A stretch of DNA of 64,000 nt from Elusimicrobiota bacterium (GTDB lineage Bacteria; CG03; SLGR01; PWQF01), in contig PWOI01000179.1 in NCBI GenBank assembly GCA_003557485.1, positions 13,789 through 77,788 of the forward strand, in the 5' to 3' direction. Under the pieces are notes generated by a model. It searched no databases. It had not been told where the DNA came from and saw only the letters and a list, made by a program, of their open reading frames with translations. Of the stretch, positions 6,945 through 64,000 are shown piece after piece; positions within the stretch are counted from its first letter, which is position 1, and each line of letters starts with the position of its first letter. Made by a program: the position numbers and the translations under genes.

Positions 6945-7035
6945 TAATATAGCCTGCTGATAAGGGCAACCGTCGGGTAACCGGCGGCTCGCAAAGTCAC
7001 AGCTCCGGGTTAACCGGAGGGCTGGTCTGCCGGTG
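6945..7035 (+). ncRNA. Candidate c-di-GMP-I (GEMM) riboswitch aptamer
   Basis: AAGGGCAACC, then hairpin CCGTCGG-GTAA-CCGGCGG (GNRA-type loop), then CTCGCAAAGTCACAG, then hairpin CTCCGG-GTTAA-CCGGAG. The flanks AGCC and GGCT can form P1. This matches the two-hairpin GEMM-I architecture with GGCAAACC and GACGCAAAGC-like junction sequences. Confidence 0.45.
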
Positions 7036-8726: not shown

Positions 8727-8738
8727 AGGAATCAAAGC

Positions 8739-10646: not shown

Positions 10647-10709
10647 AAGCGAAAATAGAATGCAGAACTTGAAAAAAAATAAATACTGTATTAGTACTTT
10701 ACAATTCTT

Positions 10710-14618: not shown

Positions 14619-14622
14619 AAAA

Positions 14623-14850
14623 ATGATAAATGTGACCAAATTAAACGGCGATGGTATAATCCTTAACGCCGAACTTATAGAAACGGTTGAATCGCGCCCC
14701 GACACTCTTATAACCCTTACTACTGGAAATAAAATTATGGTAAAGGAAAAAGTTGAGGATATAATAAAAAGGGTTGAGGATTATAAAAGGCAGGTAAATA
14801 TGCTTACCCGAGAGAAGCTTAGTGCGTTGCTCAGGGAAGAAGAGGAATAA
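14623..14850 (+). CDS. flbD: FlbD-family flagellar-type protein (75 aa)
   Basis: MINVTKLNGDGIILNAELIETVESRPDTLITLTTGNKIMVKEKVEDIIKRVEDYKRQV matches the FlbD pattern (I-x-L-T-R-L-N-G-x-x-F-x-L-N-A-D-L-I-E-T-I-E-x-T-P-D-T-V-I-T-L-x-N-G-K-K-Y-x-V-K-E). Conserved flbD-motA-motB order. Confidence 0.7.
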   Translation: MINVTKLNGDGIILNAELIETVESRPDTLITLTTGNKIMVKEKVEDIIKRVEDYKRQVNMLTREKLSALLREEEE

Positions 14851-14853
14851 ATT

Positions 14854-15711
14854 ATGGACCTGACGACAGTAATAGGGCTTTCCGGAGGCATTATAATAGT
14901 TTTTACAGCGGTTGCTCTCCGTGGTGGTATGGCAGGCCTGCAGGGGTTTCTGGATATGCCTTCCGCTATGATTACTTACGGGGGAACCTTTGCCGCTCTT
15001 ATGGTGAACTATCCGATAGATAAAGTTGTAAAAGCCTTTAAAGTCGTCAAAAAAGTATTTACCGAACAGCAGGACGACCCTAACGATTATATTGAAAAAT
15101 TCCGCCAGCTGATTATCAAAGCCTCAAAACAGGGAGTTCTTTCCCTTGAGGAAGATATAAAAAAAATGGACAACGAATTTTTAAGAAATGGAGTTAAAAT
15201 GGTCATGGACGGCCAGAGCCAGGAGCATATAGAAGAAGAAATGGAGACTGAACTGGCATTTACCAGGGAAAGGCATAAAATAGGCCAGGAAATTTTTGTG
15301 ACACTTGGCACTTACTCCCCTGCGTTCGGTATGATAGGGACTATTATGGGTCTTATCCTGATGCTAGCCGACCTTCAGGATACTGCCCAGATAGCTGCCG
15401 GTATGGCGGTAGCTCTATTGACAACCTTTTACGGCGCCCTTGGCGCTTATCTTATTTTTCTTCCCATCGCCGGCAAGCTGAAAAGGCGTTCGGAAGAGGA
15501 GCTTTTTCTTAAAAGTGTCATAACCAGAGGCGTCATGTCCCTTCATGCGGGAGAGGTTCCTTCAATAGCGGTAGCTAAACTGCGCGCGTATATACCGAGA
15601 TCCTCTTTTATGGAGCCTTCCGGCACAAAAAAAGGGAAGGCTGACGAAAAAGAAGAAGGAAACAAGAAGAAAAAAACAAAGGTAAAATACCGTAAAAAGA
15701 AGAAGAAATGA
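14854..15711 (+). CDS. motA: MotA/TolQ/ExbB-family proton-channel stator subunit (MotA-like, 285 aa) with Lys-rich C-terminal tail
   Basis: MDLTTVIGLSGGIIIVFTAVAL...ITYGGTFAALMV N-terminal TM pair. C-terminal TM pair with the LGTYSPAFGMIGTIMGLI...LLTTFYGALGAYLIFLPIAGKL signature. Tail KKGKADEKEEGNKKKKTKVKYRKKKKK. Confidence 0.85.
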   Translation: MDLTTVIGLSGGIIIVFTAVALRGGMAGLQGFLDMPSAMITYGGTFAALMVNYPIDKVVKAFKVVKKVFTEQQDDPNDYIEKFRQLIIKASKQGVLSLEEDIKKMDNEFLRNGVKMVMDGQSQEHIEEEMETELAFTRERHKIGQEIFVTLGTYSPAFGMIGTIMGLILMLADLQDTAQIAAGMAVALLTTFYGALGAYLIFLPIAGKLKRRSEEELFLKSVITRGVMSLHAGEVPSIAVAKLRAYIPRSSFMEPSGTKKGKADEKEEGNKKKKTKVKYRKKKKK

Positions 15712-16562
15712 GCAAAATTGCCGCATTTAAGAGGAGTCTTCCTAAAGACGAGGGGGATATTGAGGTCGGTAAAGGCTCCCCCCCGTGGATGACTACTTAT
15801 GGAGACCTTGTTACCCAGCTCCTGATTTTTTTTGTTATGATGTTTGCGCTTGCCGCCACGCTCAATGAGCTGCAGTTGATAAGCATAAAACGCAGAATTG
15901 AGAACTACGCATACCAGAACCAGCTTGGCCATCTTATAATGCTCGATATTAACCCCAAAGGATTGGTAATAACCCTTAGCGAAAAAATGATGTTTGATTC
16001 CGGCCAGGCCGAGATATATGAGGATGCAAAAGCCATTCTCTCCGCAATAGCAGGTGAAATAATAGATGTACCCAATCCTGTCAGAATTGAAGGTCATACG
16101 GATAGCGTACCCATCAGTACAGATAGGTTTCCTTCCAACTGGGAACTGTCAACAGCCCGGGCGACAAATGTAGCAAGATATCTTGTAGAGAACCTGGAAT
16201 TTCCGCCTGACCGGATAGCTGCCGGGGGGTACAGTAAATACCATCCTGCGGTAGGAACGGAAATTGAAGATGAAATATTCAACTACAAGTTAAAAGTAAG
16301 AGAGGTTCCACAGCATTATTCCCTTGAGCTCAGGCGCGCATCCACTCCGGAGGAGGAAGACCTGGTTATGTTGAGAATAAGAGAAGAACAGCTTGAGATA
16401 CAACGGGAAATGCAGGGAATAATTATGGAGCATATACGTATTGCAAACCTTGATGCGGACAGAAGAGCCCGGAACAGGAGGGTTGACATAATAGTGGAGA
16501 GGATAGGCACTACTGTTGAAAGAAGAACGGATATCGCGGCGCCTGTTGCCGTTTCTCATTAG
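15708..16562 (+). CDS. motB: MotB-like stator subunit with OmpA-type peptidoglycan-binding domain (284 aa)
   Basis: PPWMTTYGDLVTQLLIFFVMMFALAA plug/TM motif. IEGHTDSVPI...FPSNWELSTARATNVARYLV...NRRVDIIV OmpA-like domain. Start overlaps the motA stop (ATGA). Confidence 0.85.
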   Translation: MSKIAAFKRSLPKDEGDIEVGKGSPPWMTTYGDLVTQLLIFFVMMFALAATLNELQLISIKRRIENYAYQNQLGHLIMLDINPKGLVITLSEKMMFDSGQAEIYEDAKAILSAIAGEIIDVPNPVRIEGHTDSVPISTDRFPSNWELSTARATNVARYLVENLEFPPDRIAAGGYSKYHPAVGTEIEDEIFNYKLKVREVPQHYSLELRRASTPEEEDLVMLRIREEQLEIQREMQGIIMEHIRIANLDADRRARNRRVDIIVERIGTTVERRTDIAAPVAVSH

Positions 16563-47847: not shown

Positions 47848-48969
47848 ATGAAAAAAACCTTTAATATTAATTTAGAAAAAATAAAGAAAACTGCTTCAAA
47901 ATCAGCACTGATCACTTTTGCAGCTGTCATTGTCGCCGGAGTAATCGGTACATGGTCAGTCAATATACTCATAAAACAGATAATACATGACCGCAGTGAA
48001 GTTTTAGTGCCCGATATAGAAGGTATGCCGCTGGAAGAGGCACTTGAACTTTTAAGCGAAAGAAATCTTTCTCTATCCCTGATTGCAAGGAAATATGATC
48101 CGGATATTCCCTCGGGAAGTGTAATATCGCAGACCCCGCCTCCGGGCCTCATGGTAAGGGAAGGAGGGGTTATTGAAACTGTTATTTCTTCCGGTGGACA
48201 GGTTGTTTTTGTCCCCAGGGTTGAGGGAAGGGTTCTCAGAGAGGCCGAAATGCTTATACGCCAGGCAGGCCTGCAGATGGGTGAACAGACCCGGACTTAT
48301 TCCCGTACGGTGGAAGAAGGTTACGTGGTTTCCCAGTCCCCGCCTCCAGACGAAGTCGTTCAGGGTGATTCGTATGTTGATATTGTGGTAAGTCTCGGAT
48401 CTGCGGATTATGATAAAGTGGCCTATATGCCGGACCTGGAAGGAATGAGGATAAGAAATGCAGAGAGGGTCCTTAATGAGATGGGGCTCAGAATAGCGGC
48501 AGTAAAAGCGGAAATATATGAAGAATTGCCGGAGGGGACGGTTGTTAAACAGTCACCTGAGGCTGGTGTTGAAATAGAGACAGGTAAAAGCGTTGACCTT
48601 ATTATTTCAAGAAAAAAACAGGAAACCCTTCAGGTTAGAGAAGAAATCATCAGATACAATATAACATCTGAAGATATCGGAAGTGATATAAAAATAATAT
48701 TGTCCGACGATATTAGGGACGAATATGTTCTATACGAAGAAACTGCTGAAGATGTGGAGAAAATTGAAATTCCGGTAAGGGTACTCGGCAAAGCAAAAGT
48801 CCAGGTTTTTTCAGGGAAAAATATTATTTCCGAAAAGATATATGAAGAAAAAAAAGAAACAGAAGAATACGAGGAGCTTTTAGATACGGAAGATCCCGGT
48901 GAAGATTTGTTTTTTGAAGATATTTTTCCTGAAGATTACGGGGAAATCGAAGAGTTTTTTATTGAATAA
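47848..48969 (+). CDS. Kinase-less PASTA-repeat protein (N-terminal TM, 3 PASTA domains, acidic C-terminal tail)
   Basis: Repeats VPDIEGMPLEEALELL..., VPRVEGRVLREAEMLIRQAG..., MPDLEGMRIRNAERVLNEMG... Tail EEYEELLDTEDPGEDLFFEDIFPEDYGEIEEFF. Confidence 0.7.
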   Translation: MKKTFNINLEKIKKTASKSALITFAAVIVAGVIGTWSVNILIKQIIHDRSEVLVPDIEGMPLEEALELLSERNLSLSLIARKYDPDIPSGSVISQTPPPGLMVREGGVIETVISSGGQVVFVPRVEGRVLREAEMLIRQAGLQMGEQTRTYSRTVEEGYVVSQSPPPDEVVQGDSYVDIVVSLGSADYDKVAYMPDLEGMRIRNAERVLNEMGLRIAAVKAEIYEELPEGTVVKQSPEAGVEIETGKSVDLIISRKKQETLQVREEIIRYNITSEDIGSDIKIILSDDIRDEYVLYEETAEDVEKIEIPVRVLGKAKVQVFSGKNIISEKIYEEKKETEEYEELLDTEDPGEDLFFEDIFPEDYGEIEEFFIE

Positions 48970-49625
48970 TGAATAAGAAATTTGAAATATCAGCATCTGT
49001 TCTCAATATGGATTTTTCCATGATGAGAGAGAGTATTGCTAAGATCGAAGAAACCGGTATAGATTCTTTCCACCTTGATATCATGGATGGAAATTTTGTC
49101 AATAATATTTCTTTCGGGCCGGATATATCAAAAACAATTATTTCTCTTGCGACAGTCCCGGTACATTCACACCTTATGGTAAAAAATCCTGAGAAATATG
49201 CAGACAGGTTTTTTGATGCCGGGACAGAAAGTGTAACAGTGCATGCAGAGGTTTTAAATAAAGAAAACCGGGGTTTGCTTGACAGGCCCCGTATGGGCCT
49301 GTCTCTTAATCCTGATATCCCTCTGGAAATTCTGGATCCGTACCTTGAAAAAGCTGAAAGGATTCTAGTAATGAGCGTTATGGCAGGGTTCGGCGGCCAG
49401 AAGTTTATGGATGGCAGCCTTAAAAGAATTGAATCCCTCAGAAATAAAAGAGAAAAAAAGGGTTATTCTTTTCTTATTGAGGTGGACGGTGGAATAAATG
49501 GTGCAAATGCTCCTCTCTGCATAAAAGCCGGTGCGGATGTTGTTATAGTAGGTTCCTGGATAACTCTTTCGGATGATCCGTCCGGTAGGGTAAAAATTCT
49601 TAAAAGTATTCCCGGCCGGAAATAA
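48969..49625 (+). CDS. rpe: Ribulose-phosphate 3-epimerase
   Basis: ISASVLNMDF...FHLDIMDGNFV...VHAEV...VDGGIN. Confidence 0.85.
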   Translation: MNKKFEISASVLNMDFSMMRESIAKIEETGIDSFHLDIMDGNFVNNISFGPDISKTIISLATVPVHSHLMVKNPEKYADRFFDAGTESVTVHAEVLNKENRGLLDRPRMGLSLNPDIPLEILDPYLEKAERILVMSVMAGFGGQKFMDGSLKRIESLRNKREKKGYSFLIEVDGGINGANAPLCIKAGADVVIVGSWITLSDDPSGRVKILKSIPGRK

Positions 49626-54878: not shown

Positions 54879-56420
54879 ATGGAATACTTAAAAAGACTGT
54901 CGGCCCTTATTGTCCTTGTTCTTTTAAGTGCAGGGATATATTTTATATATTGGTCCTCCAGTGTACACAGAATTGAAATAGTATTTACCACAGACGGCCA
55001 CGGCCATATACTGCCTTCAAGAGTTCACAGTGAAGAAGGAAGCCCTTTAATGGGCGGGCTTTCCGCTTTGGGCGGCTTTCTTAAAACAGTTCAGGAGCCG
55101 TACCTTCTTACCGATTCCGGAGACATTTATCAGGGAACTCCGGAAGGTTTCAGAACCAGGGGGACTATAGTGGTTGAGCTTATGAACATGCTTGGTTATG
55201 ATGCGCTTGCCGTTGGAAACCATGAATTCGATCACGGTCTTGATAACCTAAGAAATCTTTCATCAATGGCGGACTTCCCTTTTCTGGGAGCAAATATAAT
55301 TGACCTGGAAACGGGCACCAGTCCGGATTTCATATCTCCGGGTTTTCTTACAAAGATAAAAGATGTTAATGCCGGCATCGCAGGAGTCATAACCGAAGAT
55401 ATGGAGAATCTTGTTTTTCCCGGACATATAAAAGGGCTTGAGTTTATATCCGCCCGACAGGCCCTGCAAACTGAGATAGAGCGTCTCAAGGAAGAAGGAG
55501 CGCAGATAATAGTAGTATTGAGCCATATGGGACTTGATGACGATATAGAGCTTGCCCGTGGTTTAGATTCAATAGATGTAATTCTGGGGGGTCACACGCA
55601 TCTTATTCTTGAAAAACCGCATCTGGCAGGAAGGACTATTATAACGCAGGCCGGAAGCAATTTTACGCATGCAGGCCGTCTTACTCTTTATTACAGCGCT
55701 ACAGCCGGAAGAATACTCTCTTTTTCTCATGCAATTGTGCCGCTTTATGCTGATAAGTACGGTGGGTACGAGTCGGTGGAAAGAATAATTGAAGCGCGCC
55801 TGGACGATGTTGTATCGGAGATGTCGCGCGTTATCGGAAAATCAAATGTTAGGATGTCCCGCAGCCTTACAGGTGAAGTAGCGAAACACGGAGAGCTTTC
55901 AATAGGTAATTTTCAGACCGATATTATGCGCGCACTTACCGGGGCGGATTTTGCATTCCAGAACACAGGGGGAATCCGCGGAGAAATTCCGGAAGGTGAT
56001 ATTACTGTCAGGGATATATGGAACCTTTCTCCTTTCGGCAACAGTATAGTAACAATGCATCTCAACGGAAAACAGTTAAAAGAACTGCTTGAATTGAGCG
56101 TTTCTCACAGATATTCAAAACTTCAGATGTCCGGACTAAGAATTATTTACAACAGTTCGCTTCCCCCGGGTAGGAGGGTTCTTAATGTTTTCGTTATAAC
56201 CGATGAGGGAGAGGAGCCGTTGGACCTGAAGGAAAAGTATAAAGTTGCAACCAATTCTTTTCTTGCACAGGGAGGCGATGGTTACAGGACTTTCAGGGAA
56301 GGAGAGGATGTGAGGGATACATCTATTCTTTTAAGGGAAGCTCAGATAGAATATATTGAAGAAAAATCACCTGTAACGGCCCGCCGAACCGGAAGAATGG
56401 TAAATGTTAGTATTGAATAA
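54879..56420 (+). CDS. Membrane-anchored 5'-nucleotidase / UshA-family metallophosphoesterase
   Basis: N-terminal TM. Calcineurin-like motifs (DGHGH, GNHEFD, GGHTH). C-terminal 5'-nucleotidase domain. Confidence 0.75.
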   Translation: MEYLKRLSALIVLVLLSAGIYFIYWSSSVHRIEIVFTTDGHGHILPSRVHSEEGSPLMGGLSALGGFLKTVQEPYLLTDSGDIYQGTPEGFRTRGTIVVELMNMLGYDALAVGNHEFDHGLDNLRNLSSMADFPFLGANIIDLETGTSPDFISPGFLTKIKDVNAGIAGVITEDMENLVFPGHIKGLEFISARQALQTEIERLKEEGAQIIVVLSHMGLDDDIELARGLDSIDVILGGHTHLILEKPHLAGRTIITQAGSNFTHAGRLTLYYSATAGRILSFSHAIVPLYADKYGGYESVERIIEARLDDVVSEMSRVIGKSNVRMSRSLTGEVAKHGELSIGNFQTDIMRALTGADFAFQNTGGIRGEIPEGDITVRDIWNLSPFGNSIVTMHLNGKQLKELLELSVSHRYSKLQMSGLRIIYNSSLPPGRRVLNVFVITDEGEEPLDLKEKYKVATNSFLAQGGDGYRTFREGEDVRDTSILLREAQIEYIEEKSPVTARRTGRMVNVSIE

Positions 56421-56460: not shown

Positions 56461-57558
56461 TTGTCATACTTAAGTAAATGCCTGATTGCATCCGCAGCGG
56501 TACTTCTAATATTCGCATATATATATGTATATATTAAAAAACAGAAAAGAACAGCAGAAAAGTGTAAAACCGCGGTCAACGATTTAAAACTGGTGCAGGA
56601 GCTTGGAAAGGAAATATCTTCAAAGCTTCAAATGTCGGAACTTCTCCCTGCCATAATGGATGCTTTTGTAAAAGCGGGTGATGTAAGTAAGGGTTCGCTT
56701 ATGCTTTATGACAGGGAAAGAGATATTCTGGAAATACATTCTTCCGTTGGATTGAGCGACAGGGCCCGTAAATATATTAAACTTAAGATAGGGGAAGGTA
56801 TTGCCGGCCGTGTAGCAGAAACGGGTAAGCCCATACTTGTGAATGATACAACCGGCGCCCGTATGTACAAGGATTTCTTTTCTGAAGACTCCAGAGGACG
56901 GCCTCAGGAAACCATTCTCAGTATGCCTCTTATATTCAAGGGCGAAGTGCTGGGAGTCATTACTCTTGATGCTAAAAAAAGCGGAGGACAGTTTATAAGA
57001 AATGATGAGAGACTTCTTTCCATACTTGCCTTACAGGCCGCTGTTTCCATTAATAATGCCAGAATGTACGAGATGGCTATTACCGACGATTTGACAAAAC
57101 TTTACAGTAAGAGGCATTTTATTATCCGGCTTCAGGAAGAAGTTGAAAAGGCCAGAAGGTACGACAGACCTCTTTCTCTTCTTTTTGTGGATATAGATCA
57201 TTTTAAAGAATTTAATGATACCTATGGCCACCAGCTGGGTGACAGAGCGCTTCAGCATCTGGGCGGAGTTATAAAAAAAACAACAAGAGCCGCAGATATA
57301 TCCGGAAGATACGGCGGTGAAGAGTTTGTGATAATTCTTCCTGAAACCGCCAGAGAAAGTGCATTGATTCTTGCCGAGCGCCTCCGTAAAAACATTGAAA
57401 AACAGTCATTTGTATCAAGAGGCAATGAATACAGGATAACCGTAAGCATAGGAATAGGAGAATACAAGGCAAAGATGACTTCCCCGTCCCAACTCATAAG
57501 CGAGGCCGACAAAAATCTCTATAAAGCAAAACAGAAGGGACGAAACAGGGTAGTTTAA
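56461..57558 (+). CDS. Membrane-anchored GAF-GGDEF diguanylate cyclase
   Basis: N-terminal TM. GAF-like region. GGDEF domain with an intact GGEEF motif (RYGGEEFVIILPE). TTG start. Confidence 0.8.
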   Translation: MSYLSKCLIASAAVLLIFAYIYVYIKKQKRTAEKCKTAVNDLKLVQELGKEISSKLQMSELLPAIMDAFVKAGDVSKGSLMLYDRERDILEIHSSVGLSDRARKYIKLKIGEGIAGRVAETGKPILVNDTTGARMYKDFFSEDSRGRPQETILSMPLIFKGEVLGVITLDAKKSGGQFIRNDERLLSILALQAAVSINNARMYEMAITDDLTKLYSKRHFIIRLQEEVEKARRYDRPLSLLFVDIDHFKEFNDTYGHQLGDRALQHLGGVIKKTTRAADISGRYGGEEFVIILPETARESALILAERLRKNIEKQSFVSRGNEYRITVSIGIGEYKAKMTSPSQLISEADKNLYKAKQKGRNRVV

Positions 57559-57598: not shown

Positions 57599-57627
57599 TT
57601 GACTGTAAGTTAAAATATTACTATATT
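57599..57627 (+). promoter_or_regulatory. sigma70-like promoter TTGACT-17-TATATT upstream of the tpiA/BMC operon
   Basis: TTGACT at 57599-57604. 17-nt spacer. TATATT at 57622-57627. SD AAAGGAGAGG before the ATG at 57719. Confidence 0.45.
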
Positions 57628-57718
57628 AAACTTGAATTGAGGCCGTTTTGTTGACAGTATGACATCACCCGGTCTCTTTAAGCTGCTATAAAGGAGAATT
57701 GAAGAAAGGAGAGGTTAT

Positions 57719-58468
57719 ATGCGCAGACCTTTTATTGCCGGGAATTGGAAGATGTACAAAACAAACAGCGAGGCTGAGGAAACCATTCGGTACCTTAAAG
57801 ATAAACTCAAAGAAATAGAAAATGTAGATATAATGATTGCCCCCCCCTATACGGCTTTAACTATTGCTGCCGGAATAACAGCCGGAAGCAATATCTATCT
57901 TGGAGCACAGAATGTTCACTATGAAAATGAAGGCGCCTATACCGGAGAAATTTCTCCGCCGATGCTTGTTTCAGCCGGATGTCGATATGTAATTATAGGT
58001 CACTCCGAAAGAAGGCAGTATTTCGGATGTACCGACAAGGATGTGAACTTAAGGCTTAAATCAGCGGTCAGGTCAGGGCTTAAAACTGTGGTTTGTATAG
58101 GTGAGAAACTTGAGGAAAGGGAATCCGGAAAGACATTTGATATTCTTTCATCCCAGCTTTCCGAAAGTTTGAAAAACCTAAGTGAAGAAGAAAAAAATAT
58201 GCTTATTGTTGCCTATGAGCCTGTATGGGCAATAGGGACGGGTAAGACAGCAACTCCGGATATAGCGGAAGAAGCTCATAAATACATAAGGGGAAAAATT
58301 GCTGATATGTACGGTAGGGATTTTGCTTCCGGAGTCAGGATTCTATATGGAGGAAGTGTAAAACCTGATAACATAAGAGACCTTATGGCTCAGGACAATA
58401 TAGATGGGGCCCTGGTCGGCGGTGCCAGCCTTGATGCGGAATCTTTTTCAAAAATAGTGAATTTCTGA
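57719..58468 (+). CDS. tpiA: Triosephosphate isomerase
   Basis: IAGNWKMYKT. Catalytic H (IIGHSERR) and E (AYEPVWAIGTG). YGGSV. Confidence 0.9.
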   Translation: MRRPFIAGNWKMYKTNSEAEETIRYLKDKLKEIENVDIMIAPPYTALTIAAGITAGSNIYLGAQNVHYENEGAYTGEISPPMLVSAGCRYVIIGHSERRQYFGCTDKDVNLRLKSAVRSGLKTVVCIGEKLEERESGKTFDILSSQLSESLKNLSEEEKNMLIVAYEPVWAIGTGKTATPDIAEEAHKYIRGKIADMYGRDFASGVRILYGGSVKPDNIRDLMAQDNIDGALVGGASLDAESFSKIVNF

Positions 58469-58474
58469 GAAAAT

Positions 58475-59092
58475 ATGGATGAAGCAGTTATAACAGGGGA
58501 AGTTTTACTACGGCTGCAGCGATCGGAGAGGAGTATTGTCTGCAATGTTTCAAACCGCCACGCACATCTTACACAGGAACACATTGAAAAACTTTTTGGT
58601 CCGGGATACAGATTATCCAGGCTGAGAGACCTTGTACAGCCGGGGGAATACGCGGCTGAAGAAACATTGACTCTGAAAGGACCTAAAGGAAAAATTGAAA
58701 AGGTACGCATACTTGGGCCTCCGAGAGAATTCTCACAGCTGGAAATTTCCAGAACCGATACGTATACAAGCGGGATAAAAGCTCCGCTGAGGATTTCCGG
58801 AGATATCCAGGGGTCATCCGGAGGCTGGCTTATAGGCCCTCACGGGTCAGTTCAACTCACACAGGGTATAATAGTAGCCAGGCGTCATATACATATGACC
58901 CCCCGGGATGCCGATTTTTTTAAAGTAAAAGACAGACAGTATGTGCGGGTGAGGACCAGTCCCCCCAGATCGGTTGTTTTTGAGGATGTTCTTGTACGGG
59001 TCAGCCCTGACTACAGGCTTGAGTTCCACGTAGATACGGATGAAGCAAATGCCTGCGATTTGAAAAGCCCGGCAGAAGTATTTTTATCCTGA
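58475..59092 (+). CDS. pduL: PduL-type phosphotransacylase (phosphate acetyl/propanoyl-transferase)
   Basis: Two PduL-repeat signatures: NVSNRHAHLTQEH and ARRHIHMTPRDA. Confidence 0.75.
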   Translation: MDEAVITGEVLLRLQRSERSIVCNVSNRHAHLTQEHIEKLFGPGYRLSRLRDLVQPGEYAAEETLTLKGPKGKIEKVRILGPPREFSQLEISRTDTYTSGIKAPLRISGDIQGSSGGWLIGPHGSVQLTQGIIVARRHIHMTPRDADFFKVKDRQYVRVRTSPPRSVVFEDVLVRVSPDYRLEFHVDTDEANACDLKSPAEVFLS

Positions 59093-59113
59093 AAAAGGAA
59101 GGAGTAACTTATT

Positions 59114-59416
59114 ATGCAGAATCAGGCTCTTGGAATGATAGAGACAAGGGGTCTTGTCGGCATGATAGAAGCTGCGGATGCTATGGTAAAAGCGGCTGAT
59201 GTCAGGATGGCCGGCTACGAGAAGATAGGACACGGATACGTTACGGTTATGGTAAGGGGTGAAGTAGCCGCCTGCCGTGCAGCCTGTGAGGCAGGTAGCG
59301 CAGCTGCGCAGCGGGTAGGCGAACTTGTGTCTGTACATGTAATCCCCAATCCGCATAAGGACCTTGAGGGCAAACTTCCGATATCTCAGGAATTTTTCAA
59401 AAAAGCCCCCAAATAA
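59114..59416 (+). CDS. BMC-H hexameric microcompartment shell protein (PduA/EutM/CcmK-like)
   Basis: [26 protein letters not shown]...[17 protein letters not shown]...VHVIPNPH. Confidence 0.9.
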
Positions 59417-59477
59417 AAACCGGTCAGGAATGCCGGCTGAGATATAATGCCTGCAGGCATAAAGGGAGAGAAATAAA

Positions 59478-59777
59478 ATGAAGTTTGGAATAATAACCGG
59501 AAATGTCGTATGCACCAGGAAAGACGAGAAGATAGAAGGCAGAAAACTTCTGTTAGTCCAGCCTGTTGATGATAATATGAAGGAAGACGGAACAACTCTG
59601 GTTGGAATTGACACGGTCGGTGCAGGAGAAGGAGAACTTATCCTTTTTGTTACCGGCTCCTCTTCGAGACTCACAGAGATAACACAGGACCGTCCTGTTG
59701 ACTGTACGATAATGGGAATAGTCGATTATATAGAAAAAGGCGGGAAAGTAATATTTGACAAAAGTAAATCTGAATAA
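59478..59777 (+). CDS. BMC-P pentameric vertex protein (EutN/PduN/CcmL family)
   Basis: MKFGIITGNVVCTRKDEK...LLLVQPV...LVGIDTVGAG...TGSSSR. Confidence 0.85.
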   Translation: MKFGIITGNVVCTRKDEKIEGRKLLLVQPVDDNMKEDGTTLVGIDTVGAGEGELILFVTGSSSRLTEITQDRPVDCTIMGIVDYIEKGGKVIFDKSKSE

Positions 59778-59817
59778 ATTGTCCCCCTTTTTTTGAATCT
59801 TTGAGGAGGCAGACCCT

Positions 59818-61248
59818 ATGGATATCAACAGAGATGAAATAGCCTCGGTGGTCAGGGAAGTAATTGCTCGTCTTGAAAAAGAAAAAATTTCTTCTTCAGG
59901 TCCGGAAGAAGTTTCTTCGGGGGGGGGTGTCCTCTATGATTCTATGGAAGATGCTGTAAGTGCTGCTAAAAGGGCACAGAAAAAATTTTTATCAATAAGT
60001 CTGGCTTCAAGACAGAATATAATAGAATCAATACGGAAAGCCGCAAGGTCTGAAGCCGGAAACCTGGCGCGCAATGCCGAAAAAGAAACCGGTATGGGAA
60101 GGTGGGAGGATAAGGTAAAAAAGAATCTGCTCGCCGCTGACAAAACACCGGGAATAGAAGACCTTCAGCCCGTTGCCTATACGGGTGACCGAGGGCTTAC
60201 CCTTATTGAAAATGCGCCTTTCGGAGTTATAGGTTCGGTAACTCCCTCAACAAATCCGACTTCAACTATTATCAACAATGCCATCAGTATAATTGCGGCC
60301 GGCAATGCCGCCGTCTTTGCTCCGCATCCCGCTGCAATGAAATGCTCACAGCAATGTATGCAAATTCTTTCAGATGCAGCAGTTGCAGCAGGTGCTCCGG
60401 AAGGGCTTATAACCGCAATGCGTAAACCCTCGCTGGAGGGAGCAGAAGTCCTTTTTACACATCCTGACATACGGCTTCTTATTGTAACCGGCGGGCCGGC
60501 TGTTGTTGAAAAAGCAATGAAAACTGATAAAAAAGTTATAGCGGCCGGACCGGGAAATCCTCCGGTTGTAGTTGACGAAACTGCGGATCCCGTAAAAACT
60601 GTTGACTCTATAATAAACGGTGCCGGTTTTGATAACGGAATATTATGTACGGCGGAAAAAGAGGTTCTTTTAGCCGGCGGTTGTCATGATTCAATTCTTA
60701 AGCAGATGCGTTCCGACGTCAGGGCTTTTGAACTGACGGAATCCCAGATGGAAAAACTTGCCTCCATCGCAATAGAAAAAAGCGGCCGTGGGGGGGGGCA
60801 TCCTATTGTCAATAGGGATTTTATCGGAAAAGACGCTTCTGTCATTGGAAAAGCGCTTGGCCTTGATGTAGGAAGTCAGGTCCGGCTTCTATGGGCGCTT
60901 GTGGATGAGAATAATGATTTCATGTGGACTGAACAGCTTATGCCGGTGCTCCCATTTGCTATATCCGGAGATATAAAAAGAACTATTGATCTGGCGGTGG
61001 AGATGGAAGGTGGGAATGGGCATACCGCTATAATGCACTCTCTTAATGTAGAATCTCTTACGGAAATGGCAAGAAAGTCGGCCTGTTCTATATTTGTTAA
61101 AAACGGGCCTTCTTATATGGGTCTTGGTATGGGGGAAGGTTATGCGACTCTCTCAATTGCCACTCCTACCGGGGACGGGCTTGTAAAAGCCCGGAATTTT
61201 ACACGGCCGCTAAGGTGTTCCCTGGTTGATTACTTCAGGATTACTTAA
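59818..61248 (+). CDS. CoA-acylating aldehyde dehydrogenase (PduP/EutE-like) with N-terminal encapsulation-peptide-like helix
   Basis: ALDH superfamily. Catalytic Cys in NGILCTAEKEV. N-terminal amphipathic helix EIASVVREVIARLEKE followed by a Ser/Gly linker. Confidence 0.8.
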   Translation: MDINRDEIASVVREVIARLEKEKISSSGPEEVSSGGGVLYDSMEDAVSAAKRAQKKFLSISLASRQNIIESIRKAARSEAGNLARNAEKETGMGRWEDKVKKNLLAADKTPGIEDLQPVAYTGDRGLTLIENAPFGVIGSVTPSTNPTSTIINNAISIIAAGNAAVFAPHPAAMKCSQQCMQILSDAAVAAGAPEGLITAMRKPSLEGAEVLFTHPDIRLLIVTGGPAVVEKAMKTDKKVIAAGPGNPPVVVDETADPVKTVDSIINGAGFDNGILCTAEKEVLLAGGCHDSILKQMRSDVRAFELTESQMEKLASIAIEKSGRGGGHPIVNRDFIGKDASVIGKALGLDVGSQVRLLWALVDENNDFMWTEQLMPVLPFAISGDIKRTIDLAVEMEGGNGHTAIMHSLNVESLTEMARKSACSIFVKNGPSYMGLGMGEGYATLSIATPTGDGLVKARNFTRPLRCSLVDYFRIT

Positions 61249-61253
61249 AACGC

Positions 61254-62579
61254 ATGCAGAAAAGTAAAATCATAGAGAAAGTCCGTAATGCCGGGATAGT
61301 CGGCGCAGGCGGCGGCGGATTTCCGACTCATGTAAAGATAGATGCAGAAGTTGAAACCCTGATAGCTAACGGAGCCGAATGTGAACCGCTTCTCTCCACA
61401 GACAGGTATCTTATGGAAAATTATGCCGGGGATATAATAGATGGTCTGAGGTATGTAAAACAGGCGCTTGGTGCCCGGGATATTTATATAGGACTAAAAA
61501 GAAAATATGAAAAAGCTGTAAAAGTATTTAAGACAATCCTGGGTGAAACTTCTGATATAAAGCTGGCCCTGATGGATAACTATTACCCTGCAGGAGATGA
61601 GTTCGACCTTGTATATAATATTACCGGACGGATAATACCGGAGGGAGGGCTTCCTCTTGATGAAGGATGCGTGGTTATCAATGTAAATACTCTTTTGAAT
61701 ATAAAGCGGGCGGTTGACGGATCCGCCCCGGTAACCGATAGGTGGGTGACCGTGACCGGGGAAGTGGAATCGCCATACATCGCTCCTGTTCCGGTAGGCA
61801 TATCAGCTGCAGAGCTGATTAAAAAAGCAGGGGTTAAAATAAAAGATTACCGCCTGCTTGCAGGAGGCCCTATGATGGGAGTTCCGGTTGAGGACAATTA
61901 CCGGATAAAAAAAACCTGCAGCGGGATAATAGTATTGCCTGAAAAACACGGGGCTTTTGTAAAACAGGACATGACTCTGCAGGCACATAAAAAAAGAGGA
62001 AAATCAATATGTGATCAATGTTTTGACTGCACGATATTGTGCCCTCGTAATCTGCTGGGTCATTCGCTTGAACCTCACAGGATAATGCGAAATCTTTTCA
62101 TATCTGCGGAAAATTTTTCAGAGTATACACCGTCTTTTCTTTGTTCGCAATGCGGTTTATGTAATATGTTTGCCTGCCCTCTGGACCTGTCTCCCAGGAG
62201 TCTTCTCAAGGAAACCAGCGATACACTTTCACGCAGAGGCGTTGAAAATCCGCATAAAGAGCGGAATCTTAAGCCCCACCCGGAAAGAGAATACAGAAAA
62301 GTGAACTCTTCCCGTCTTGCAGCCAGAATAGGGGTTGATAAATATGAGAAGGAAGAGTTACCTGTTAAAGAGATCAAAACAGCAAAGGTGCACATAAGCA
62401 TGAGTCAGCATGCGGGTACGCCTGCTGTTGCGGTTGTCAAAAAAGGGGATACGGTGAAACGCGGCCAGTTAATAGGAGAGATACCCCGCGGAAAGCTAGG
62501 GTCCAGGGTTCATTCAAGCATTTCCGGAACAGTTAAAGAAATAACTTCCGGCTATATAGCAATAGAAAAAGGGGAGTAA
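61254..62579 (+). CDS. PduS/RnfC-like flavoprotein with two 4Fe-4S cluster motifs
   Basis: GAGGGGFPTHVK nucleotide-binding motif. CDQCFDCTILCP and CSQCGLCNMFACP ferredoxin motifs. C-terminal barrel-sandwich-like domain. Confidence 0.65.
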   Translation: MQKSKIIEKVRNAGIVGAGGGGFPTHVKIDAEVETLIANGAECEPLLSTDRYLMENYAGDIIDGLRYVKQALGARDIYIGLKRKYEKAVKVFKTILGETSDIKLALMDNYYPAGDEFDLVYNITGRIIPEGGLPLDEGCVVINVNTLLNIKRAVDGSAPVTDRWVTVTGEVESPYIAPVPVGISAAELIKKAGVKIKDYRLLAGGPMMGVPVEDNYRIKKTCSGIIVLPEKHGAFVKQDMTLQAHKKRGKSICDQCFDCTILCPRNLLGHSLEPHRIMRNLFISAENFSEYTPSFLCSQCGLCNMFACPLDLSPRSLLKETSDTLSRRGVENPHKERNLKPHPEREYRKVNSSRLAARIGVDKYEKEELPVKEIKTAKVHISMSQHAGTPAVAVVKKGDTVKRGQLIGEIPRGKLGSRVHSSISGTVKEITSGYIAIEKGE

Positions 62580-62583
62580 GAAA

Positions 62584-63132
62584 ATGCAGCATGCAATAGG
62601 ACTGATAGAGTTAAACAGCATAGCGAAAGGATTTGAGGTAACGGATATTCTTTTAAAGACTGCTTCAAGCCAGCTCGTAGAGGCCCATTCCGTATGTCCG
62701 GGTAAGTTTATAGTGCTGATAACAGGTACAACAGCAGATATTGAATCTTCAATGAAAAGCGGTATTGAACTGGCGGCGGAGTCACTGGTGGATAAAGTGG
62801 TTATTAACAATATAGACCCGCAGCTTGTACCTGCTATAAGAGGCGCCTCGGATGTTGAACGGCTTGATGCTCTGGGTATAATAGAAACTTTTTCTGCCGC
62901 TTCAAGCATTATTGCCGCTGACGCAGCGGTAAAAGCAGCCGATGTTAAACTTATTGACGTAAGGCTTGCCAATGCTCTGGGCGGAAAGGCATACCTTACC
63001 CTGACGGGCCAGATAGGGGCAGTAAGGTCGTCGGTAGCTGCCGGCTGCAATGCCTTAAAGGGGGAAGGAATACTTATCCGTCGGGTTGTTATACCGCAGC
63101 CGCATAAGGATTTACGCAGGAGCGTTTTATAA
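62584..63132 (+). CDS. BMC-T tandem-domain shell protein (PduT-like) with pore-proximal Cys
   Basis: Two BMC domains (AIGLIELNSIAKGFEVTD... and ALGIIETFSAASSIIAADAAVKAADVKL...). Cys in HSVCPGKF. Confidence 0.8.
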   Translation: MQHAIGLIELNSIAKGFEVTDILLKTASSQLVEAHSVCPGKFIVLITGTTADIESSMKSGIELAAESLVDKVVINNIDPQLVPAIRGASDVERLDALGIIETFSAASSIIAADAAVKAADVKLIDVRLANALGGKAYLTLTGQIGAVRSSVAAGCNALKGEGILIRRVVIPQPHKDLRRSVL

Positions 63133-63584
63133 TGGACGATATAGTTATAGGTTCTGATCATGGTGGTTTTGAGCTGAAGGAAAAAATTAAAAAATTTCTG
63201 CAGGAAGCCGATTATAATGTGATGGATTTCGGAACTTATTCTGAAGATTCCTGTGATTATCCCGATTATGCCTTAATTGTGGCAGAAGCAGTCGCTTCAG
63301 GGGAGTATAAAAGGGGGATCCTTATTGACGGGACGGGCGGAGGCATGTGCCTTGCTTGCAATAAAATAAAAGGGATAAGGGCTGTAACCGCATACAATGC
63401 GCTTACAGGCGCTTATGCTGCAGAACATGATAATGCAAATATACTCTGTCTTGGAGGTAAGATGACAGGGGAGCTTGCCGCATCGGATATAGTTAAAAAA
63501 TGGCTCGAGACTCCTTTCGGAGGCGGCCGCCACGAAAGGCGTCTGAATAAAATAGAAAGTATTGAGGAAAAATATTTCAAATGA
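63132..63584 (+). CDS. rpiB: Ribose-5-phosphate isomerase B (RpiB/LacAB family)
   Basis: IVIGSDHGGFELKEKI...GILIDGTGGGMCLACNK...ILCLGG. Confidence 0.85.
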   Translation: MDDIVIGSDHGGFELKEKIKKFLQEADYNVMDFGTYSEDSCDYPDYALIVAEAVASGEYKRGILIDGTGGGMCLACNKIKGIRAVTAYNALTGAYAAEHDNANILCLGGKMTGELAASDIVKKWLETPFGGGRHERRLNKIESIEEKYFK

Positions 63585-64000
63585 AAATTATACTGGCTTC
63601 TGATCACCGGGGTTTTGAACTTAAAGAAGAAATAAAAAAGTTCCTGAAAGAGAAAGGACATGACATTGTTGACGTAGGAACAGAGAGTTCTGAAAGAACA
63701 GATTATCCTTTTTATGCAAGAAAAGGAGCGGATATTATCAGAAAAACTGAAGGAAGTAAAGGTGTTTTTATATGTGGAAGCGGCCTGGGCATATGTATTG
63801 CAGCCAATAAAGTCCCGGGAGTAAGAGCTATTACCGCCCGCTGTCCCGAAGATTCCCGTATGGGTGTGATGCATAATAATGCTAATGTAATTTGCCTCGG
63901 CGCGGACAGGACCGGATTTAAAAAGGCAAAGAAAATAATAGCAGAGTTTCTCAACGGAAGTTTTGAGGGGGGGCGCCATCAGGACAGGTTGACTATGATA
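63580..64000 (+). CDS. Second RpiB/LacAB-family sugar-phosphate isomerase paralog, 3'-truncated by the window edge. Not in the supplied ORF track.
   Basis: ATG at 63580 overlaps the previous stop (ATGA). Translation MKIILASDHRGFELKEEIKKFL...GVFICGSGLGICIAANKVPGVRAI...VICLGADRTG. Confidence 0.75.

What the first reader, a model, noticed from the sequence alone, without database searches (positions are those of the whole stretch)
57599..64000. Bacterial microcompartment locus with TIM, PduL, aldehyde dehydrogenase, PduS-like flavoprotein and two RpiB paralogs (SPU-like metabolosome, function unknown)
Seen in sequence: promoter, tpiA, PduL-like phosphotransacylase, BMC-H, BMC-P, acylating ALDH, RnfC/PduS-like Fe-S flavoprotein, BMC-T, RpiB and a second RpiB. 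All are closely spaced on one strand and continue past the window end.

Established knowledge: BMC loci containing RpiB, commonly with DeoC, define the sugar-phosphate-utilising (SPU) class, which has no experimentally defined substrate. The ALDH-PduL pair is the canonical aldehyde to acyl-CoA to acyl-phosphate core.

Inference: the encapsulated aldehyde probably arises from aldol cleavage of a (deoxy)pentose phosphate. The cleavage would yield acetaldehyde plus glyceraldehyde-3-P, and TIM would process the latter. The missing DeoC and alcohol dehydrogenase are probably just downstream of the window. An upstream membrane 5'-nucleotidase (54879) might feed nucleoside-derived sugars.
Basis: partly seen in the sequence, partly recalled or inferred. 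Interest (0 to 1): 0.75.

Follow-up and report, generated by a model that had tools for sequence, protein, structure and literature searches.

The report
SPU1 sugar-phosphate microcompartment operon, Elusimicrobia
This is the first two thirds of an already catalogued kind of bacterial protein organelle (the SPU1 microcompartment of Elusimicrobia), thought to break down the sugar of DNA; it is an ordinary new member, and its one small peculiarity is an extra, normal-looking ribose-phosphate isomerase gene.

Summary
Nine intact, tightly packed + strand genes at 57719-64000 encode TIM, PduL, BMC-H, BMC-P, an EutE-like acylating aldehyde dehydrogenase, a PduS-like Fe-S flavoprotein, a PduT-like BMC-T and two RpiB paralogs. 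A promoter-like site precedes them and is conserved in relatives.

The locus belongs to a published class, SPU1 (Sutter 2021: 62 loci, only in Elusimicrobia). The nearest relative is an Elusimicrobia MAG (81% nucleotide identity, fully syntenic). There the operon continues BMC-P, BMC-P, deoxyribose-phosphate aldolase (DERA), BMC-H, a small unknown gene and an FTCD_C-like gene.

The predicted alcohol dehydrogenase and DeoR regulator are absent in all of them. NAD+ recycling is instead explained by the PduS/PduT pair, published in 2024 as the MNdh/BMC-T(SE) electron-export module; the pore cysteine is present here. "No experimentally defined substrate" is partly outdated, because an SPU6 DERA cleaves deoxyribose-5-P in vitro (Dwyer 2024).

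Local variations:
- RpiB1 has the SPU-typical Cys-to-Asp change.
- RpiB2 is a canonical RpiB recruited only in this sub-clade.
- TIM has no encapsulation extension.
- There is a single BMC-T.

Verdict: new member of a known kind, low to moderate interest.

The parts
57599..57627 (+). Promoter-like site, TTGACT-17 nt-TATATT, in the 160-base gap before tpiA
   Evidence: Consensus scan, 10 of 12 positions. Both hexamers are conserved in L001 and L003 while the flanks diverge. Function is not shown.
57649..57668 (+). Second conserved leader block, TGTTGACAnnATGnCAnCA; candidate operator or second -35 element
   Evidence: Invariant columns in the three-genome alignment. No Rfam family reaches its gathering score in this leader. 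Role unknown.
57719..58468 (+). Triosephosphate isomerase, 249 aa, without an N-terminal extension
   Evidence: PF00121 at 319 bits and TIGR00419 above its cut-off. An in-frame stop at 57689-57691 excludes an extension. TIM of L002, L003 and L163 carries 47-50 extra N-terminal residues.
58475..59092 (+). PduL-type phosphotransacylase (PTAC), 205 aa, with about 20 N-terminal residues before the domain; possible encapsulation peptide
   Evidence: PF06130 at 247 bits; NF011652 at 255 bits against a cut-off of 209. The N-terminus is conserved in L002 and L162.
59114..59416 (+). BMC-H shell hexamer, 100 aa, with KAAD / PNPH interface motifs
   Evidence: PF00936; EutM equivalog at 135.7 bits against 133. 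Motifs were read from the translation. It corresponds to the second SPU1 BMC-H type, KAA(N/D)/PQPH, in the catalogue.
59478..59777 (+). BMC-P shell pentamer, 99 aa; first of an expected triplet
   Evidence: PF03319 at 97 bits. The other two BMC-P genes follow RpiB2 in L161, L002 and L003.
59818..61248 (+). CoA-acylating aldehyde dehydrogenase (EutE-like), 476 aa. It has an N-terminal amphipathic helix (residues 6-19) and a Ser/Gly/Pro linker, which together form an encapsulation peptide.
   Evidence: NF011927 at 581 bits against a cut-off of 403. Its helical hydrophobic moment (1.99) is comparable to the largest found among the six N-termini scored. The helix is conserved in L002, L162 and L163. 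The catalogue says all SPU1 AldDh carry encapsulation peptides.
61254..62579 (+). PduS-like NADH:FMN Fe-S flavoprotein (MNdh), 441 aa, with two Cys motifs (CxxCxxCxxxCP and CxxCxxCxxxxCP)
   Evidence: Complex1_51K, SLBB, Fer4_17 and a C-terminal RnfC_N domain. The rnfC subfamily model scores 261 bits against 246. Cys motifs were read from the translation. Function is taken from PMC11626177.
62584..63132 (+). PduT-like tandem BMC-T with a pore cysteine (BMC-T(SE)), 182 aa, starting 4 bases after MNdh
   Evidence: Two BMC domains. SVCPGKF aligns with TICPGKF of PduT (3PAC; 3N79 also matches). That this is the [4Fe-4S]-ligating pore Cys of PduT rests on my own knowledge and the catalogue's 'pore cysteine' wording.
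63132..63584 (+). RpiB1: SPU-type RpiB-family protein, 150 aa, with Cys66 changed to Asp and Asn100 changed to Asp (E. coli numbering); no N-terminal extension
   Evidence: ILIDGTG aligns with IVICGTG of RpiB 3HE8. Residue table. It clusters with the Asp-type RPIs of other SPU loci.
63581..64000 (+). RpiB2: canonical RpiB (Cys66, Ser68, His99, Asn100, Arg133, His134 and Arg137 all present). Its start overlaps the RpiB1 stop (ATGA). It is cut by the window end after 140 codons.
   Evidence: TIGR01120 rpiB at 151.7 bits against 138.65. It forms one group with L161, L002, L003 and P0002 inside the ordinary RpiBs.

Best explanation
The region is the promoter-proximal two thirds of an SPU1-type metabolosome operon of an Elusimicrobia bacterium.

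**Shown**
- The gene content, its order and its intactness.
- The subtype-defining combination of enzymes and shell proteins.
- The pore cysteine of the BMC-T.
- The Asp and Cys states of the two RpiB paralogs.
- The presence of a bona fide DERA two genes beyond the window end in the closest relatives.

**Inferred, from the published SPU and MNdh models**
1. 2-deoxyribose-5-phosphate enters the shell.
2. DERA splits it into acetaldehyde and glyceraldehyde-3-P.
3. The EutE-like dehydrogenase, targeted by its N-terminal helix, traps acetaldehyde as acetyl-CoA and makes NADH.
4. PduL converts acetyl-CoA to acetyl-phosphate and recycles CoA inside the shell. Acetyl-P leaves and can yield ATP.
5. 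No alcohol dehydrogenase is used. Instead the PduS-like flavoprotein (MNdh) re-oxidises NADH and passes the electrons through its two [4Fe-4S] clusters to the cluster in the PduT-like trimer, and so out of the shell.
6. TIM equilibrates GAP with DHAP for glycolysis. Here it has no targeting extension, so this probably happens in the cytosol.
7. RpiB1 (the Asp variant) most likely acts as the catalytically weak or inactive DERA partner described for SPU6.
8. RpiB2 is an ordinary ribose-5-P isomerase co-transcribed with the operon, plausibly channelling ribose-5-P from the same nucleoside pool into the pentose-phosphate pathway.
For: - **Family assignments:**
- **Taxonomy and synteny:** the nearest loci are Elusimicrobia MAGs. 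L001 is syntenic from the 5'-nucleotidase to RpiB1 at 77-97% amino-acid identity and about 81% nucleotide identity.
- **Complete locus in the nearest relative:** the last 935 bases of L001 are 100% identical to the start of L161. Together they give one locus...BMC-T, RpiB1, RpiB2, BMC-P, BMC-P, DeoC (472 aa), BMC-H, a 94-aa gene and FTCD_C.
- **Same order elsewhere:** L002 and L003, at 55-75% identity.
- **The aldolase is a true DERA:** TIGR00126 deoC at 289 bits against a cut-off of 117. E = 1e-81 to solved DERA 5DBU, with the EIDMV, KVILE and FVKTSTGF motifs aligned.
- **Catalogue description:** SPU1 is found only in Elusimicrobia and has AldDh, PTAC, pfam00121, pfam01791, pfam02502, a PduS/PduT pair with a pore Cys and a BMC-P triplet.
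- **Biochemistry:** the SPU reaction scheme and in vitro DERA activity on deoxyribose-5-P. MNdh/BMC-T(SE) electron export, proposed for BMCs that lack an alcohol dehydrogenase.
- **Pore Cys:** aligned to PduT.
- **RpiB residue states and tree:**
Against: - DERA itself is outside the window, and the source genome could not be found. Its presence here rests on synteny.
- No SPU1 organelle, substrate or induction has ever been tested in vivo. The only biochemistry is from an SPU6 DERA and RPI, and the MNdh work used a GRM1 pair.
- The locus departs from the catalogue's SPU1 description. No second, Cys-less BMC-T was seen here or in the relatives L002, L003 and L001 joined to L161 that were read across the whole locus. 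The PduS/PduT pair sits between AldDh and RPI, rather than at the head as in L046 and L056.
- The role of any RPI in deoxyribose-5-P cleavage is unexplained.
- TIM and RpiB2 lack targeting peptides and are absent from the related locus L162. They may not belong to the organelle at all.
Confidence: 0.65

Rival explanations
1. The same organelle runs in the reductive, condensing direction (the Atribacteria model attributed to Nobu 2016). Acetyl-P or acetyl-CoA is reduced to acetaldehyde as an NADH sink. DERA then condenses acetaldehyde with GAP to deoxyribose-5-P, and RPI and TIM handle the sugar phosphates for storage.
For: This model is in the literature for DERA/RPI microcompartments. AldDH, PduL, DERA and TIM are all reversible enzymes (established biochemistry). 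An RnfC-like flavoprotein could in principle feed electrons inward.
Against: MNdh was shown to oxidise NADH and push electrons outward to the BMC-T cluster. [quoted passage not shown] The cell has no evident use for deoxyribose-5-P made this way. No direction has been tested experimentally.
Confidence: 0.08
2. The translationally coupled Asp-type RpiB1 and Cys-type RpiB2 form a LacA/LacB-like hetero-oligomer. This would restore isomerase activity inside the organelle, so that it processes ribose-5-P or another aldose phosphate, and not only deoxyribose-5-P.
For: The stop and start codons overlap as ATGA here, in L161 and in L002. Like RpiB1, LacA carries Asp at the base position, and LacB supplies the Cys. 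RpiB1 keeps Thr68, His99, Arg133, His134 and Arg137.
Against: - Both proteins score as rpiB and stay below the LacA and LacB cut-offs.
- RpiB2 is not a duplicate of RpiB1. It nests among ordinary RpiBs and shares their commonest catalytic signature.
- RpiB1-type proteins with the identical D-T-H-D signature occur without any RpiB2 in L162. Asp-type RPIs occur alone in L046, L056 and L163.
- RpiB2 has no encapsulation peptide.
- No downstream enzyme, such as a transketolase or kinase, links ribulose-5-P to the aldolase.
Confidence: 0.1
3. TIM and RpiB2 are simply the cell's housekeeping glycolytic and pentose-phosphate enzymes that happen to be co-transcribed with the operon. They play no organelle-specific role. 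This would be a rival only for those two parts.
For: Both are canonical by residues and curated models. Neither has an N-terminal extension. Both are missing from the related locus L162. Across relatives, RpiB2 is less conserved than most of the other operon proteins: 51-54% against 55-76% for the others.
Against: TIM is a recurrent component of SPU1 and SPU4 loci and carries targeting extensions in L002, L003 and L163. Its product link to DERA, via GAP, is direct. Whether the genome has other tpiA or rpi genes could not be checked.
Confidence: 0.3

Closest known systems
SPU1 bacterial microcompartment loci (Sutter et al. 2021, Nat Commun, Supplementary Data 2; 62 loci, only in Elusimicrobia)
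   Same: - Phylum, judged from the nearest relatives.
- AldDh with an N-terminal encapsulation peptide, PTAC, pfam00121 TIM and pfam02502 RPI.
- pfam01791 DERA next to two BMC-P genes (seen in relatives).
- PduS homolog next to a PduT-type BMC-T with a pore Cys.
[quoted passage not shown]

   Different: - Only one BMC-T; the Cys-less second one was not seen.
- The PduS/PduT pair lies inside the operon, between AldDh and RPI, rather than at its head as in L046 and L056.
- There is an additional canonical RpiB (RpiB2).
- TIM has no extension.

SPU6 DERA/RPI pair of Chloroflexi bacterium GWB2_54_36 (Dwyer, Sutter and Kerfeld 2024, Commun Biol)
   Same: The DERA catalytic motifs are conserved in the relatives' enzyme. 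The RPI carries the Cys66-to-Asp substitution that the paper reports for all SPU RPIs. The two genes lie close together.
   Different: - SPU6 lacks PTAC and PduS, has a BMC-T(dp), and its AldDh carries a C-terminal encapsulation peptide.
- Its RPI has an N-terminal encapsulation peptide with a linker of about 75 residues. RpiB1 here has none.
- The relatives' DERA has a roughly 250-residue N-terminal region (helix, flavoprotein-like domain and a 4-Cys motif), against about 70 residues in SPU6.
- RpiB2, which keeps the Cys, is an exception to the paper's 'all SPU RPIs' statement.

MNdh / BMC-T(SE) NAD+-recycling module (PduS/PduT homologs; Sutter et al. 2024, PNAS)
   Same: The genes are adjacent. 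The domain set is Complex1_51K, SLBB and two 4Fe-4S motifs. The BMC-T pore Cys is present. An AldDh is present and no alcohol dehydrogenase is.
   Different: The characterised pair came from a GRM1 locus of Clostridium botulinum. Nothing is known about the external electron acceptor here.
EUT and PDU metabolosome core (EutE/PduP aldehyde dehydrogenase, PduL, EutM/PduA, EutN/PduN)
   Same: The aldehyde to acyl-CoA to acyl-phosphate logic is the same. The same curated families are matched.
   Different: The signature enzyme is a class I aldolase acting on a sugar phosphate, not a B12-dependent lyase or dehydratase. There is no alcohol dehydrogenase.
LacA/LacB galactose-6-phosphate isomerase
   Same: Two adjacent RpiB-family genes, one with Asp and one with Cys at the catalytic-base position.
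   Different: Both proteins fall below the LacA and LacB model cut-offs and above the rpiB cut-off. RpiB2 is an ordinary RpiB by phylogeny.

Membership tests
SPU-class metabolosome (Axen 2014; Sutter 2021; Dwyer 2024) | A deoxyribose-phosphate aldolase (pfam01791) encoded in the shell-gene locus; this is the signature enzyme | tested here: inconclusive
   It is not inside the window, which ends in RpiB2. It is present two genes further on in the nearest relative, L001 joined to L161, and also in L002, L003 and L162. There it is a true deoC (TIGR00126 at 289 bits).
SPU-class metabolosome | An RpiB-family protein (pfam02502) in the locus, with Asp in place of the catalytic Cys | tested here: met
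   RpiB1, 63132-63584: PF02502 at 183 bits; Asp at position 66.
SPU-class metabolosome | A CoA-acylating aldehyde dehydrogenase with an encapsulation peptide | tested here: met
   NF011927 at 581 bits. N-terminal amphipathic helix followed by a linker, conserved in relatives.
SPU-class metabolosome | A triplet of distinct BMC-P proteins, two of them adjacent | tested here: inconclusive
   One BMC-P is in the window. The adjacent pair follows RpiB2 in L161, L002 and L003. The colour-clade HMMs were not available.
SPU1 subtype | Occurs in Elusimicrobia | tested here: met
   The best genome matches are Elusimicrobia MAGs at 73-90% BMC-T identity. Identity to L001 is about 81% at the nucleotide level over 10.6 kb that includes housekeeping genes.
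SPU1 subtype | PTAC plus pfam00121 TIM in the main locus, and no BMC-T(dp) | tested here: met
   No further BMC-T was found in the relatives' complete loci.
SPU1 subtype | Two BMC-T(s): one PduT-type with a pore Cys next to PduS, and one without the Cys | tested here: not met
   Only the Cys-bearing BMC-T is present here and in L002, L003 and L001 joined to L161. L046 and L056 do have two. The catalogue notes that PduS/T are satellites in some genomes. I treat this as sub-clade variation.
SPU1 subtype | Assignment by the Sutter/Axen locus-type HMMs and clustering | not testable with these tools
   The type-specific HMM set is not among the libraries offered.
MNdh / BMC-T(SE) module | A PduS homolog (NADH/FMN domain plus two 4Fe-4S motifs) encoded next to a PduT homolog with a pore Cys | tested here: met
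   The two genes are 4 bases apart. The Cys motifs were read from the translation.
MNdh / BMC-T(SE) module | NADH oxidation with electron transfer to the BMC-T cluster | not testable with these tools
   This needs biochemistry. It has been shown only for a GRM1 pair.
LacA/LacB galactose-6-P isomerase | Scores above the curated LacA or LacB model cut-offs | tested here: not met
   Neither RpiB1 nor RpiB2 reaches the cut-off of any LacA or LacB model. For example, against the PRK08621 LacA model (cut-off 164) RpiB1 scores 110 and RpiB2 scores 100; against the TIGR01119 lacB model (cut-off 313) RpiB1 scores 91 and RpiB2 scores 88. Both exceed the rpiB cut-off.

The most novel reading that the evidence does not exclude
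In this Elusimicrobia sub-clade the SPU organelle would have regained a working sugar-phosphate isomerase. A canonical, Cys-bearing RpiB2 was recruited directly behind, and is translationally coupled to, the 'dead' Asp-type RpiB1. The two would form a LacAB-like hetero-oligomer bound to DERA. The compartment would then take ribose-5-P or another aldose phosphate as well as deoxyribose-5-P. That would finally give the enigmatic SPU RPI a catalytic role.
Probability: 0.1. Interest if true: 0.55.

Novelty: new member of a known kind. Interest (0 to 1): 0.25.

Why it matters
SPU loci are among the most widespread microcompartment types, yet no SPU organelle has been studied in a living cell. A well-delimited SPU1 operon with its promoter region gives a template for heterologous expression.

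It also offers a natural comparison for the open question of what the RPI does, because it contains an Asp-type RPI with a canonical RpiB beside it.

Beyond that, the locus adds nothing conceptually new. Its subtype, its reaction scheme and its NAD+-recycling module are all already published.

Tried and rejected
- **Finding the source genome to read past 64000.** Exact-protein look-ups of RpiB1 and BMC-T found nothing. A metagenome scan with RpiB2 returned only generic RpiBs at 52% identity or less. The downstream content therefore had to be inferred from relatives.
- **Searching with only the N-terminal 245 residues of the relatives' DERA.** This returned no hit, not even the protein itself. 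I take that as a limitation of the word index, because the full-length query then found more than 100 long-form relatives.
- **Looking up P0122** (86% identical DERA). It was not on record.
- **LacA/LacB membership for the RpiB pair.** Rejected on the curated cut-offs.
- **RpiB2 as a recent duplicate of RpiB1.** Rejected by the neighbour-joining tree and by 44% pairwise identity.
- **RpiB1 depending on RpiB2.** Made unlikely by L162, which has the same RpiB1 signature and no RpiB2.
- **A riboswitch in the operon leader.** No Rfam family reaches its gathering score there. Only the gathering threshold was run.
- **An N-terminal extension on TIM.** Excluded by an in-frame stop codon at 57689-57691.
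- **Intrinsic terminators inside the operon.** The matches are no more frequent than in shuffled sequence: 10 found against 10.4 expected.

Full report

Yes. The + strand between 57719 and the window end carries nine intact ORFs. They are separated by gaps ranging from a 4-base overlap to 61 bases.

Pfam and NCBIfam assign them as follows:
- Triosephosphate isomerase, 57719-58468.
- PduL-type phosphotransacylase, 58475-59092.
- BMC-H, 59114-59416.
- BMC-P, 59478-59777.
- EutE-like CoA-acylating aldehyde dehydrogenase, 59818-61248 (581 bits against a cut-off of 403).
- PduS/RnfC-like flavoprotein, 61254-62579, with Complex1_51K, SLBB, Fer4 and a C-terminal RnfC_N domain.
- Tandem-domain BMC-T, 62584-63132.
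- RpiB1, 63132-63584.
- RpiB2, from 63581; it is cut by the window end after 140 codons.

Consensus matches are frequent in this sequence (25 found against 15.8 expected). However, this one sits in the only real intergenic gap. Both hexamers, and a second block TGTTGACA... at 57649-57668, are conserved in two relatives whose flanking bases have diverged. No Rfam family reaches its gathering score in the leader.

**2. Where does it come from, and what lies beyond the window?**

The source genome is not in the exact-match collection. A metagenome scan gave only generic RpiBs.

A scan of one genome per species found that the nearest relatives are Elusimicrobia MAGs. L001 (isolate CSSed10_282R1) is syntenic with the window from the 5'-nucleotidase through RpiB1. 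Identity is 77-97% at the protein level and about 81% at the nucleotide level, but that contig ends in RpiB1.

The closest homolog of RpiB2 in the large protein collection (80% identity) lies on contig L161. The first 935 bases of L161 are 100% identical to the end of L001. The two contigs therefore reconstruct one complete locus in the nearest relative. After RpiB2 come two BMC-P genes, a 472-aa DeoC, a BMC-H with KAAK/PRPH motifs, a 94-aa protein with no family, a 193-aa FTCD_C-like protein, and then an unrelated DnaA-like ATPase.

The more distant L002 and L003 (55-75% identity) show the same order.

The aldolase is a genuine DERA. It scores 289 bits on the deoC equivalog model against a cut-off of 117. 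It matches a solved DERA at E = 1e-81, with the catalytic Asp and Lys motifs aligned.

No relative has an alcohol dehydrogenase or a DeoR-type regulator in or next to the locus.

**3. What is it?**

It is a published locus type. The 2021 microcompartment catalogue describes SPU1 as follows:
- 62 loci, found exclusively in Elusimicrobia.
- pfam01791 and pfam02502 enzymes next to two BMC-P genes.
- An AldDh with an encapsulation peptide, a PTAC and a pfam00121 isomerase.
[quoted passage not shown] All of these features are either in the window or at the expected position in its nearest relatives.

- **Pore cysteine.** The window's BMC-T aligns over its full length with PduT structures, and SVCPGKF lies over TICPGKF.
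- **Encapsulation peptides.** The dehydrogenase starts with an amphipathic helix (DEIASVVREVIARL) followed by a Ser/Gly/Pro linker, and this is conserved in relatives. PduL has about 20 residues ahead of its domain.

**4. How it most likely works**

The SPU model is that deoxyribose-5-P is cleaved by DERA to acetaldehyde and glyceraldehyde-3-P. The volatile aldehyde is then oxidised to acetyl-CoA inside the shell. PduL then gives acetyl-P and recycles CoA.

Instead the locus has the PduS/PduT pair. In 2024 this pair was re-interpreted and partly characterised as MNdh/BMC-T(SE). It is an NADH dehydrogenase that passes electrons through its two clusters to the cluster in the shell trimer and out of the compartment. 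It was proposed precisely for the many microcompartments that have an AldDh but no alcohol dehydrogenase.

These steps are inferred by homology. Only an SPU6 DERA has been assayed (active on deoxyribose-5-P), and only an SPU6 RPI (essentially inactive on ribose-5-P, and forming a complex with DERA). The reverse, aldehyde-condensing direction proposed for Atribacteria cannot be excluded. It fits the outward electron flow of MNdh less well.

**5. What is particular to this locus**

- **(a) The two RpiB paralogs are not equivalent.**
  - RpiB1 has Asp at the catalytic-base position (E. coli Cys66) and Asp at Asn100. It keeps Asp9, His10, Thr68, His99, Arg133, His134 and Arg137.
  - RpiB2 has the full canonical set, with Ser at position 68. 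That is the commonest state among 63 ordinary homologs examined.
  - In a neighbour-joining tree RpiB1 groups with the Asp-type RPIs of other SPU loci. RpiB2, with its orthologs in L161, L002, L003 and P0002, forms one group among ordinary RpiBs. So RpiB2 was recruited, not duplicated.
  - RpiB2 occurs only in this sub-clade. It is missing from the related locus L162 and from the canonical-order SPU1 loci L046 and L056. Their single RPI is Asp-type, and in L162 it has the same signature as RpiB1.
  - The RpiB1 stop and the RpiB2 start overlap (ATGA).
  - Dwyer et al. state that all SPU RPIs carry the Asp, so RpiB2 is an exception to that statement.
  - The simplest reading is a co-transcribed ordinary isomerase. 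A LacAB-like heteromer is a minority possibility. Neither protein meets the LacA or LacB cut-offs.
- **(b) TIM has no N-terminal extension here or in L001.** An in-frame stop at 57689-57691 rules one out. TIM in L002 and L003 carries a conserved extension of about 47 residues, and in L163 a classical amphipathic helix. TIM is also absent from L162. It is probably cytosolic here.
- **(c) Only one BMC-T is present,** and the MNdh/BMC-T pair sits in the middle of the operon.

**6. A side observation from the relatives**

The DERA of this clade is a fusion protein of 467-475 aa. It has four parts:
- An N-terminal amphipathic helix.
- A confidently modelled domain of about 160 residues (pLDDT above 90). 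Its best structural matches are the FMN-binding UbiX, phosphopantothenoylcysteine decarboxylase, EpiD and DmrB family (Foldseek E about 1e-7). This agrees with weak PF02441 hits.
- A nearly invariant C-x6-C-x2-C-x2-C motif.
- The aldolase barrel.

At least the 120 best-scoring 90%-identity clusters are almost all of this long form, including those from other SPU-like loci (L162, L163). PF02441 proteins are known microcompartment accessories (PvmL). However, I did not find the fusion to DERA, or the Cys motif, described in the papers read. The catalogue only notes 'N-terminal extensions that do not resemble EPs'. Whether the window's own DERA has this form is unknown.

**7. The upstream context**

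The window is otherwise housekeeping DNA on one strand: the trp genes, topoisomerase I, a XerC-like recombinase, ribulose-phosphate 3-epimerase, DNA polymerase I, CoaE and Rho.

The membrane-anchored 5'-nucleotidase (54879-56420) and a GAF-GGDEF protein (56461-57558) precede the operon. The GGDEF gene is also adjacent in L001 and L003. The nucleotidase is adjacent only in L001.

**8. Verdict**

It is wrong or outdated in its details: there is no alcohol dehydrogenase and no DeoR regulator, a substrate has been tested in vitro, and the subtype is already catalogued.

This is a new member of a known kind, with a minor sub-clade variation, and interest is low to moderate.

Noticed in passing
window 6955-7034 (+), with ORFs 7131-16562: A c-di-GMP-I riboswitch (Rfam RF01051, 43.8 bits against a gathering score of 35) lies just upstream of a + strand gene row. 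The row encodes a TPR protein, a protein with FliG middle and C-terminal domains plus TPR, a 1302-aa protein with no Pfam match, and MotA and MotB/OmpA homologs. This looks like a c-di-GMP-controlled stator/FliG-like system.
   Followed up: no
window 56461-57558 (+): A membrane-anchored GAF-GGDEF diguanylate cyclase gene sits directly upstream of the microcompartment operon. This adjacency is conserved in L001 and L003, the latter being much more divergent. A regulatory link to the operon is possible but untested.
   Followed up: partly
L161 2362-3780; L002 7778-9181; L003 12320-13723; L162 10001-11425; L163 9001-10404: The DERA of these SPU loci is a fusion of about 470 aa. It comprises an amphipathic helix, a UbiX/HFCD-type flavoprotein-fold domain (Foldseek E 1.6e-7 to 7KM3; weak PF02441), a nearly invariant C-x6-C-x2-C-x2-C motif and the aldolase. 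At least the 120 best-scoring protein clusters are almost all of this long form. I did not find the fusion or the Cys motif described in the papers read.
   Followed up: partly
L002 51-941; L003 4920-5816; L161 4196-4480: TIM of L002 and L003 has a conserved N-terminal extension of about 47 residues containing ..ITPLARE.A...GIEI... The conserved 94-95 aa protein of unknown family at the end of the locus carries a similar IITPMAKLLIDEKRL stretch. No Pfam match was found. This may be a shared targeting or interaction module.
   Followed up: no
L161 4474-5055; L002 9896-10489; L003 14535-15134: An FTCD_C (formiminotransferase-cyclodeaminase C-terminal) like protein of 193-199 aa is conserved as the last gene of the locus in all three relatives. 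Its role in a sugar-phosphate microcompartment is unexplained.
   Followed up: no
L162 3347-3733 and whole locus: A related locus from a Logan assembly (SRR32456884) lacks both TIM and RpiB2. It has an FMN_bind protein upstream of PduL instead. This shows that TIM and RpiB2 are accessory in this clade.
   Followed up: partly
window 48969-49625 (+): Ribulose-phosphate 3-epimerase lies 8 kb upstream, after a PASTA-domain protein. It is a pentose-phosphate gene near the operon, but it is probably an ordinary housekeeping arrangement.
   Followed up: no
window 1-64000: Every ORF that looks like a real gene is on the + strand, and GC skew is positive throughout. The cumulative skew rises steadily to 4.63. 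The window therefore lies within a single, strongly co-oriented replichore segment.
   Followed up: no
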